Source: Saccostrea echinata
Lineage: Eukaryota
Reading direction: 5' to 3'
DNA: 64,000 bases
Assembly (NCBI RefSeq): GCF_033153115.1
Contig: NW_026889774.1
Coordinates: forward strand, 11,594,001 to 11,658,000
Made by a program: the position numbers and the translations under genes. The first letter of the stretch is position 1. Each line of letters begins with the position of its first letter. Shown here one piece after another: positions 2,885 to 5,800 of the stretch. Below the pieces are notes generated by a model, which was given only the letters and a program-made list of their open reading frames with translations, did not search any database and was not told where the DNA came from.

Positions 2885-5800
2885 TCATTTATACATATAA
2901 TCTTGAGAAATATTGGCATGGACTTCAAACTCCCCAATAGTATTGGTATTCTGTACTTCAACTGTCTCTGCATCATCTGTATTTAGAGAGGACCTCAAAA
3001 ATTCCACAGCAGCTGCCGATTCCTGCAATCTGTCTGTGTCATCTGCTTGAGGTGAGTGGGATCTGAGGTGCTTCTTGAGGTCCCTATTGAAAATAAAGCC
3101 TTTCCCACAGATATTGCACAGATGGGGCCTCACTTCCTGGTGAATTCTCTGGTGGGCCCTCATGTTACTCCTATCGGAGAATCCTTTATTGCAGTAGGCA
3201 CACTTGAATGGTTTCTCTCCTAAAATTAAAGGAAAAAGAAGAAAAAAATTCTTTGGACAAACACTATTTATTTTCATCATATTGGTTATCCCTATTTGTC
3301 TAGCACAAAAAAATCCATTATTGCAGTAGGCACACTTGAATGGTTTCTCTCCTAAAATTTAAGGAAAAAGAAGAAAAAAATTCTTTAAACAAACACTATT
3401 TATTTTCATCATATTGGTTATCCCTATTTGTCTAGCACAAAAAAATCCATTATTGCAGTAGGCACACTTGAATGGTTTCTCTCCTAAAATTTAAGGAAAA
3501 AGAAGAAAAAAATTCTTTAAACAAACACTATTTATTTTCATCATATTGGTTATCCCTATTTGTCTAGCACAAAAAAAAATGAAACTCAAAAAAGCTATGA
3601 CTCTTAGAAATTGAAAACTTCTGTTATCAATATTTCATTTACTGTTGATTGTAAATATACCAAATAAAACAAACCTGTATGTTTATTCATGTGACTTTTC
3701 AAGTCACTCTTGTCTGAGAATAATTTTTGGCAAACTTCACATGTATAGACTTTAAAGCCATAACTGTTCACATCCTCCAGTTTAAGATGCCTAGAGACAA
3801 AGTGGGATCTAAGGTAATGTTCAGTTTTGAATGCCCTTCCACACTCTGGGCAGATCTTTGCTGGTTTGTCATTATGGTGGGTGAGTTTATGGGTGTATAA
3901 ACCACACCTCTGATTGAAGGACATCCCACATGAATCACACATATAGGTCTTTTTATTCAGGTGGATTTTCTCGTGTTCTTTCTTCCCACTTCCTGTTATG
4001 AAAGCCAGATCACAGTACTTGCATTTAAAGGGCCTGGCTCCCAAATGTGACCGCTTGTGAGCAGCCAGGGACTGCCGAGCACGAAAGGATTTTCCGCAAT
4101 CGTCACACAGGTAGTGCCTGTCATTGGAATGAGAGTTCATATGAAAAGTTAAATGACACTTTTCGGTAAAACCTTTGCCACAGATATCACAGATATGTGG
4201 AAGCTGTGCCAGGTGTTTTTTGGCGTGTCTGGTTAGACTGTCTTTTGAATTGGTGACAAAGTTACAAAACCTACATGGAAACATCCCTGTGTCATCGTGT
4301 TCCATTTTGTGACGATACAAGGCCATTGCCTTCTTGAATATTTGTCCACATAAATTACATGCAAGATCATTTGAACTCTTGTCACTCTGTGATGCAGAGG
4401 TGGGAATGTCAGATGATGTATTAATTTTAGAAGCACTTTCTTGTTCCACGTTTGTGCACTCAAAACGAGAAGAGCCTGTTTCCATGTCTTGTTGAACATA
4501 ATGTAAGGATAACTCGCTCAGCTCACTACTCGGAACACTCATTCCACTATGTTCCACACTGATTTCAGCCATATTTTCTGAAACTGTCAATTCCTTGTTG
4601 GAACAAGAAACTTGATTGTTTTTATGCATTTCCAAATGCTTTTCGAAATTTTTCTGGTAGGCAAACACTTTATCACAAATCGAACAGTTAAAGCTAGTCT
4701 CCTCGGGTACCTCTGGGGCACTGCAGCTGTTCTTTTCTTTATGATATTGTAAAGCCTCCTCTGAATCGAATCCATGTCTGCAAGTCCCACATGAGTAGAC
4801 CAGAGATACCTTATGAATAGCTGTATGGGCAGACAACTCCTTTTCAGTACGAAAATTCTCGGAACACACATAACATTTGAATATTTTTAAATTTTCATGA
4901 CATTTCATATGTCTCTTAAGGGAAAAAACTGAACTGAATTGAACCTGACAAAGTTTACAAGTTCTACTTTCAACTTCATTTATCCCATTTTCCACATTCA
5001 TATCATTCTTTGTATTAATACTACATTCAGGTTTTGAAGAACTTTTTCTTCTGGTTTCCAAAGCAGGTTTTCTGGACTGAAAATCATGAACACTAATATG
5101 CTTCTGTAGTATATCTCGCTTATTACATACAATGTCACAAATTTTACATCGAAGTTTCTTCCCTGCATGGATGACAACATGTCTCATCAAGGTTTTTCTA
5201 CTCTTAAGTTGTTTGTCACAAAACAGACAGTTATGTCCCGATAACTTTCCTTTCTCTTCAGTTTTCCCATTTCCACATTCCTCATTCTCTTCAGTAGCAT
5301 TTTCCCTTTTTCTCCTCTTTTCAACTAATTCAGCCCTCCTTCCTAATTTTTCTCTTGTTTGTTTATTCTGATTATTTATTTCATCTCCCTGAATAATTTT
5401 GTCATATTTACTCCCTTTCTGACCAGATCTTCTAAGATTCTTCCCTTTCCTTTTTAACTCTGATCGTAGTACAATTCTGACGTCATCATTCTTTTCTGTA
5501 TCCTGTAAACCCCCTGATCTCTCCTTACTGTTATTCTGAACCCCTTTTTTGACGTCCAAAGACCTGGGGCTGCAGACATCATTCTTTACACTTATTACCT
5601 TATCTTTAGATTTTTCTGGGATATTATTACACATTGGTGCTTTGTTATTAGAATTCTCTTCCTTGGAAAGCTGCTCTGTACTTGAAGAATCTTGTTCATC
5701 TTCAAATGTTTCACTGGGATCAAAATCAGACACATTGTCGGCTTCAGAACTTATCTTGTTATTTTTGCATTCTCTATCAGTGTCCTCCAAATTTCCGTGT

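What the first reader, a model, noticed from the sequence alone, without database searches (positions are those of the whole stretch)
3180..3576. Triplicated splice acceptor creates a potential three-way switch in a zinc-finger gene
Seen: the 132-bp (44-codon) unit contains the intron end, the AG and the first ~38 nt of the last exon, so three near-identical acceptors exist (exon starts at 3483, 3351 and 3219). Using 3219 gives the normal protein. Using 3351 gives a stop-free in-frame 44-aa insertion (GEKPFKCAYCNNGFFCARQIGITNMMKINSVCPKNFFLLFPLIL), a broken half-finger placed before finger 15. Using 3483, the first met during transcription, hits TAA after ...FFLLFP and removes the last two fingers. 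One base (TTA versus TAA) separates read-through from truncation. Inference: a recent copy-number variant that could alter DNA-binding specificity or inactivate the allele.
Basis: partly seen in the sequence, partly recalled or inferred. Interest (0 to 1): 0.7.

Follow-up and report, generated by a model that had tools for sequence, protein, structure and literature searches.

The report
Tripled splice acceptor in oyster gene
A 132-base piece spanning the start of the last exon of an oyster zinc-finger gene is present three times in this assembly, but the assembled transcripts examined all splice to the last copy, so the extra copies are likely harmless passengers of a known repeat type, not a switch.

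Summary
A 132-bp unit (94 nt intron end plus 38 nt of the last exon) occurs three times at 3182-3577. This gives acceptors at 3483, 3351 and 3219, predicting proteins of 846, 960 and 916 aa. The 916-aa form equals RefSeq XP_061183806.1 (Saccostrea echinata), and its ending is conserved in S. cucullata and Ostrea edulis. Eight of 8 laid runs join 3675 directly to 3219; none has contigs in the extra copies. No run covers the intron, so we do not know whether those animals carry the triplication, and contigs drop minor isoforms. Copies 1 and 2 are identical and copy 3 differs at 4 sites, which favours real duplication over an assembly error. This is a new member of a known kind: amphioxus 'mirage' repeats and human CBS 844ins68, where the distal acceptor wins. 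The scan has noted the same class on other DNA, including two donor-side cases in this genome. Best reading: silent repeat (0.6). Rivals: leaky or truncating allele (0.25; the first acceptor gives a 191-nt intron, where proximal sites are favoured), artefact (0.12), regulated switch (0.03). Interest 0.15.

The parts
7691..7741 (-). first coding exon of the C2H2 zinc-finger gene (ATG at 7741)
   Evidence: the exon set reproduces P0001 exactly; the loose end at 6672 in run X4 reads this exon
6521..6671 (-). coding exon 2
   Evidence: joint 6305-6521 in X4
6228..6305 (-). coding exon 3
   Evidence: joints 5810-6228 and 6305-6521 in X4
3675..5810 (-). large exon 4 (2136 nt), fingers 1-14; donor after 3675
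   Evidence: open frame; Pfam zf-C2H2; contig cover
3220..3674 (-). last intron as spliced in the runs (455 nt); it would be 191 nt with one unit
   Evidence: joint 'skips 455' in 8 of 8 runs; lengths
3446..3577 (-). repeat copy 1: 94 nt intron end, AG, 38 nt exon start (acceptor before 3483); its use predicts an 846-aa truncation
   Evidence: no contig cover
3314..3445 (-). repeat copy 2, identical to copy 1 (acceptor before 3351; TAA at 3361-3359 ends the 3483 route); use of 3351 predicts 960 aa
   Evidence: no contig cover
3182..3313 (-). repeat copy 3, differing at 3256, 3255, 3228 and 3185; holds the acceptor in use (before 3219)
   Evidence: joint in 8 of 8 runs
2885..3219 (-). coding part of the last exon: fingers 15-16, acidic tail, stop
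   Evidence: conserved in S. cucullata and O. edulis
2690..2695 (-). AATAAA, likely the normal poly(A) signal
   Evidence: motif; the longest contig reaches 2676, though contigs cannot show ends

Best explanation
The last intron-exon boundary of a conserved oyster zinc-finger gene is present in three tandem copies, likely from two rounds of local duplication, and the spliceosome likely passes over the first two acceptors and uses the last, so the extra copies would be removed with the intron and the normal 916-aa protein made. Shown: the anatomy, the copy relationships (1 = 2, 3 differs at four sites), and the 3675-3219 junction in all runs examined. Inferred: that the array exists in living animals; that a first duplication was followed by divergence and then a second duplication by slippage or unequal crossover; and that in carriers the distal acceptor wins because only it is followed by the full exon and poly(A) signal, while the inner acceptors are followed by 38 nt of exon and then U-rich intron.
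For: 8 of 8 laid runs join 3675 to 3219 in one unbroken contig, with no contig in the extra copies. Three of them match the window's alleles around the junction: X2 has 0 other letters over 2120 bases, X9's junction contig 0 over 263, X5's 1 over 1137. The normal ending is conserved in 4 of 4 other RefSeq oyster proteins aligned. Copies 1-2 carry a Lys-to-Asn change at a residue conserved in those orthologs, and the junction contigs show no change at 3185, as expected of unexpressed copies. Copy 3 has a marginally better pyrimidine tract (19 vs 18 of 21). Precedents: amphioxus BflGb6 mirages (intron end plus exon start, 150-160 bp, 3-6 units, splicing undisturbed, end unit left out of homogenisation; PMC3087553 passages) and CBS 844ins68, where the distal site is strongly favoured (PMC2630376 and PMC1802585 passages).
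Against: No run covers the intron, so all eight may lack the triplication, in which case they say nothing about acceptor competition. Contigs at depth about 6-30 drop minor isoforms. The first acceptor gives a 191-nt intron after a 2136-nt exon; in human data, introns under about 250 nt favour the proximal 3' site (PMC9225289 passages). Classical duplicated-site experiments gave opposite results (PMC1557585 passage). A boundary duplication in USH2A did disturb splicing (PMC11311777 passages). The three acceptors are nearly equal in sequence. The RefSeq model may come from this same assembly and is not independent.
Confidence: 0.6

Rival explanations
1. The triplication is a real, probably rare allele that damages the gene: in carriers the proximal acceptors take a large share of splicing, giving a 14-finger truncated protein (likely escaping exon-junction-dependent decay because the stop lies in the last exon) or the 44-aa insertion form. 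It is unregulated and tolerated as a heterozygous load.
For: The 191-nt intron to 3483 lies in the intron-definition range where the proximal site is favoured in human data. The inner acceptors are intact and almost identical to the one in use. USH2A precedent. Carrier status of the eight runs is unknown.
Against: Runs with the window's exonic alleles splice to 3219. Four differences between copies suggest the first duplication has persisted for some time, which is harder for a damaging allele of a conserved gene. CBS and mirage precedents go the other way.
Confidence: 0.25
2. The array is an assembly or polishing artefact (for example two alleles of a heterozygote written in tandem), and the true gene has one acceptor and a 191-nt intron.
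For: No independent DNA shows the array: no laid run covers the intron and the metagenome scans found nothing relevant. RNA shows only the simple form. Amphioxus mirage arrays have been mis-assembled (PMC3087553 supplement legend).
Against: Two identical copies plus one differing by four substitutions and no indels fit two real duplication steps better than a consensus error. The exonic change at column 129 is not seen as an allele in the runs. The gene's 2.7-kb frame is intact. Similar young arrays occur elsewhere on the contig.
Confidence: 0.12
3. The array is a regulated three-way switch (16 fingers, 16 fingers with a spacer, or 14 fingers) that tunes DNA binding.
For: The unit is a whole number of codons and the 3351 route is stop-free; together about 1 in 50 by chance (one third times 0.061), though picked out after the fact.
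Against: Only one junction in 8 of 8 runs. No such isoform among the orthologous proteins seen. The insert has two Cys and no His and adds no Pfam finger. Copies are 97-100% identical, too young for evolved regulation, and two of the three carry the stop codon.
Confidence: 0.03

Closest known systems
Amphioxus 'mirage' repeats (BflGb6, BflGb9, Adh3; PMC3087553, passages read)
   Same: Tandem copies of the 3' end of an intron plus the 5' part of the next exon; similar unit size (150-160 bp vs 132) and copy number (3-6 vs 3); inner units homogeneous and end unit divergent; regular splicing reported undisturbed.
   Different: Here the exon is the last exon of a bivalve gene, the unit is in frame, and length variation between haplotypes is untested.
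Human CBS c.844_845ins68 (PMC2630376 and PMC1802585, passages read; the primary paper was not held)
   Same: Duplicated intron/exon junction with two near-identical 3' splice sites; the distal one is used and the extra copy leaves with the intron.
   Different: 68 bp, two copies, internal exon; G runs between the sites drive distal choice there, whereas each unit here has a single GGG.
Human USH2A c.3812-3_3837dup (PMC11311777, passages read)
   Same: Duplication across an acceptor; use of the first copy gives a stop.
   Different: 29 bp; main outcome is skipping of an internal exon, which a last exon cannot do in the same way.
Human F7 intron 7 37-bp VNTR (PMC1557585, passages read)
   Same: Repeat of a splice junction in which only the authentic site is used.
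   Different: Donor side, 5-9 copies.
RefSeq XP_061183806.1, zinc finger protein 85-like, Saccostrea echinata
   Same: Identical to the 916-aa product of the 3219 acceptor.
   Different: The name is automatic; the protein record says nothing of the extra acceptors.

Membership tests
Mirage-type intron-exon boundary repeat | Head-to-tail copies of a unit spanning an intron-exon boundary | tested here: met
   3 x 132 bp, 94 nt intron plus 38 nt exon
Mirage-type intron-exon boundary repeat | Extra units keep splice signals | tested here: met
   Pyrimidine tract and AG intact before 3483 and 3351
Mirage-type intron-exon boundary repeat | Inner units homogenised, boundary unit divergent | tested here: met
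   Copies 1 and 2 identical, copy 3 differs at 4 columns; only three units, so weak
Mirage-type intron-exon boundary repeat | Regular splicing is not disturbed | tested here: inconclusive
   8 of 8 runs use 3219, but carrier status is unknown and the data are contigs
Mirage-type intron-exon boundary repeat | Unit number varies between haplotypes | not testable with these tools
   No laid run covers the intron; one match in the own genome; no related genome held
CBS 844ins68-type duplicated acceptor | Distal site chosen through G runs between the sites | tested here: inconclusive
   One GGG per unit in the sequence; function not testable
Regulated alternative 3' splice sites | More than one acceptor seen in RNA | tested here: not met
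   One junction only in 8 of 8 runs; low sensitivity for minor forms
Regulated alternative 3' splice sites | Alternative product conserved in relatives | tested here: not met
   4 of 4 other RefSeq oyster proteins aligned have only the normal ending; their introns were not seen
Tandem zinc-finger unit duplication (finger-number variation) | The duplicated unit encodes a whole C2H2 finger | tested here: not met
   Pfam zf-C2H2 gives 2 stretches with or without the insert; no His pair in the insert
Intron gain by tandem duplication of an AG|GT proto-splice site | A donor in one copy and an acceptor in the next restore the original coding sequence | tested here: not met
   The junction is AG|GA; the best internal GT (3467, 3335; 6 of 9 consensus matches) would add a 16-nt exon and shift the frame (821 aa); not seen in contigs

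The most novel reading that the evidence does not exclude
In carriers, the three near-identical acceptors really share the splicing of a short intron, so one allele makes a 16-finger protein, a form with a 44-residue spacer before the last two fingers, and a 14-finger truncation, with a single TTA/TAA base deciding between the last two: a newborn alternative-splicing event caught while still segregating, and a natural test of proximal versus distal acceptor choice at a last exon.
Probability: 0.15. Interest if true: 0.45.

Novelty: new member of a known kind. Interest (0 to 1): 0.15.

Why it matters
On the best reading it matters little: one more intron-exon boundary repeat that is spliced out. 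If carriers do use the inner acceptors, it would be a tidy natural experiment on acceptor competition at a last exon in a mollusc, where the short-intron proximity rule and the mirage/CBS precedents predict opposite outcomes. It is also a reminder that annotation picks the acceptor that restores the protein and hides such arrays.

Tried and rejected
Search for sequencing runs: 9 listed, none on record as RNA, all kept as contigs. I laid 8 of 9 (X8, organism B, was left out). All eight are spliced and cover exons only, including the four labelled 'DNA?', so copy number could not be tested. The lack of cover in 3220-3673 counts only together with the contigs that join across it. One search hid 22 contig rows and 92 difference rows; its depth table is still 0 for 3305-3586. 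Metagenome scans: an intron pattern found 0 stretches; the last-exon protein found 2 loci, both distant zinc fingers at 28% and 44% identity, so there is no outgroup intron and the ancestral state of the four differences is unknown. P0003 and P0004 end just after the donor with unrelated residues; I read this as unspliced read-through on DNA contigs and not as a conserved short isoform (not tested). Cryptic-donor rescue and proto-splice intron gain: frameshifting. No splice-strength model was available; only consensus matches and pyrimidine counts were used. No structure was predicted for the hypothetical isoforms, as it would not decide whether they are made. Two primary papers were not held. 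Paper searches were made; the one with 'oyster' listed 12 of 13 papers, none on such a duplication by title or abstract start. No supplements were opened.

Full report
1. Observation. The minus strand carries a five-exon C2H2 zinc-finger gene (coding exons 7741-7691, 6671-6521, 6305-6228, 5810-3675, 3219-2885). Joined, these reproduce P0001 exactly, 916 aa, which is RefSeq XP_061183806.1, 'zinc finger protein 85-like' of Saccostrea echinata. A loose pattern finds 16 fingers, one atypical; fingers 15 and 16 lie in the last exon. TRF reports 3180-3577, period 132, 3.0 copies, 98% matches, no indels. Each unit is 94 nt of intron end and 38 nt of exon start, so acceptors precede 3483, 3351 and 3219, at intron lengths 191, 323 and 455 nt. 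The predicted proteins are 846 aa (TAA at 3361-3359), 960 aa (+44 aa) and 916 aa. New detail: copies 1 and 2 are identical, and copy 3 differs at columns 58, 59, 86 and 129. Column 86 is the TAA/TTA site; column 129 changes a Lys of finger 15 to Asn in the inner copies. An 861-base query has one match in the own genome.

2. What the transcripts do. Nine runs were listed; I laid eight. All eight, from 2 sample codes and 2 studies, are spliced whatever their guessed label, and each has one contig joining 3674 to 3218, skipping 455 nt with canonical ends. No contig lies in the extra copies. Exons 2-3 and 3-4 are also joined as modelled in X4. X2 matches the window at all 2120 bases it covers, while X6 differs at 10 listed places over 2314 bases, so a haplotype like the assembled one is expressed with the distal junction. 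Two limits are serious. No run covers the intron, so none is known to carry the array. And contigs at depth about 6-30 show presence, not absence: a minor isoform would be lost.

3. Conservation. S. cucullata (P0002, P0030) and Ostrea edulis (P0031, P0032) keep the same linker, both last fingers and the tail, with no insert. The last exon is thus under constraint, and truncation would probably be harmful (inference). The 44-aa insert adds no Pfam finger. It has two Cys, no His pair, and ends in translated pyrimidine tract.

4. Real or artefact. No independent DNA was reachable. Two identical copies plus one with four substitutions is what two successive duplications give, and it is the pattern described for amphioxus BflGb6. 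I put artefact at 0.12. The 3% difference between copy 3 and the others exceeds the roughly 0.4% exonic difference of X6 from the window, but introns vary more and one copy could come from another allele, so this does not date the event.

5. How ordinary. In 40 stretches of 10 kb from the same contig, TRF found 3 arrays with period 50 or more, at least 95% matches and at most 5 copies, and 15 at 90% or more. Of 8 arrays checked, 3 (periods 250, 94, 129) matched no other stretch of the sample or the window. Scaled to 923 Mb this is some thousands of young local duplications; with one acceptor per roughly 5 kb (a recalled figure, from no call) about a hundred or more would cover an acceptor before selection. 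This is an order-of-magnitude inference from one contig. A stop-free frame arises in 6.1% of shuffles; with the one-in-three chance of being in frame that is about 2%, modest for a feature chosen after the fact, and two of three copies carry the stop.

6. Mechanism. Likely the spliceosome uses the acceptor followed by the whole exon and its poly(A) signal (AATAAA at 2695), and the inner copies leave with the intron. For: the RNA above, CBS 844ins68 (distal site strongly favoured; PMC2630376 and PMC1802585, passages) and mirages (RT-PCR suggests no interference; PMC3087553, passages). Against: the first acceptor makes a 191-nt intron behind a 2136-nt exon, and human data favour the proximal 3' site in introns under about 250 nt (PMC9225289, abstract and passages); classical duplicated-site constructs gave opposite results (PMC1557585, passage); USH2A c.3812-3_3837dup disturbs splicing (PMC11311777, passages). 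The acceptors differ little (18, 18 and 19 pyrimidines of 21). Coupling of the last acceptor to the poly(A) site is recalled knowledge, not tested here. Hence 0.6 for silent, 0.25 for a leaky or truncating allele, 0.03 for regulation. An internal GT at 3467/3335 matches the donor consensus at 6 of 9 places (real donors 5-8) but would add 16 nt and shift the frame, so it offers no rescue.

7. Known kind. It meets the structural features of a mirage-type boundary repeat; undisturbed splicing is inconclusive and haplotype length variation could not be tested. It fails the tests for regulated alternative acceptors, for finger-unit duplication and for proto-splice intron gain. The scan's index holds 6 findings with all my search words in at least 6 genomes and two donor-side cases in this genome; these are unchecked notes, used as leads to papers that I then read in part. 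One paper search including 'oyster' listed nothing on this (titles and abstract starts).

8. Verdict. Observation confirmed; switch not supported; new member of a known kind; interest 0.15. The boldest reading still open, shared use of three acceptors in carriers, has probability about 0.15 and would deserve about 0.45.

Noticed in passing
window 3536, 3404, 3272 (minus strand): Each unit holds an AATAAA followed by a GT- and T-rich tract. Behind an inner acceptor it could act as a poly(A) site, upstream of the TAA, which would give a transcript without a stop. No data.
   Followed up: partly
window 2777-3053 and 5073-5703, runs X4, X5, X7: Some contigs differ from the window by 2-8% (13 of 544, 27 of 335, 36 of 631 bases), beside contigs that match it: a divergent haplotype, another Saccostrea lineage in pooled samples, or a paralogue.
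   Followed up: no
window about 40085-40235: A long, nearly perfect inverted repeat whose left arm carries an exact 33-bp tandem duplication (40110-40177); looks like a small hairpin or MITE-type element.
   Followed up: partly
window 28560-28740 (+): An open acidic reading frame with an in-frame 33-bp (11-codon) duplication at 28618-28683; gene not identified.
   Followed up: partly
window 6957-7350 and 55076-56434: Arrays of a 166-167-bp repeat, also frequent in the sampled stretches; likely the common oyster satellite (recalled label).
   Followed up: no
P0004 residues about 50-170: The orthologue-like protein from a JGI record has about seven tandem copies of a roughly 20-aa acidic unit in the region before the fingers, so this gene tolerates internal tandem duplication elsewhere too.
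   Followed up: no
L015:7376-8121: A 250-bp unit in three copies at 95% with no match elsewhere in the sample; another young triplication on the same contig.
   Followed up: no
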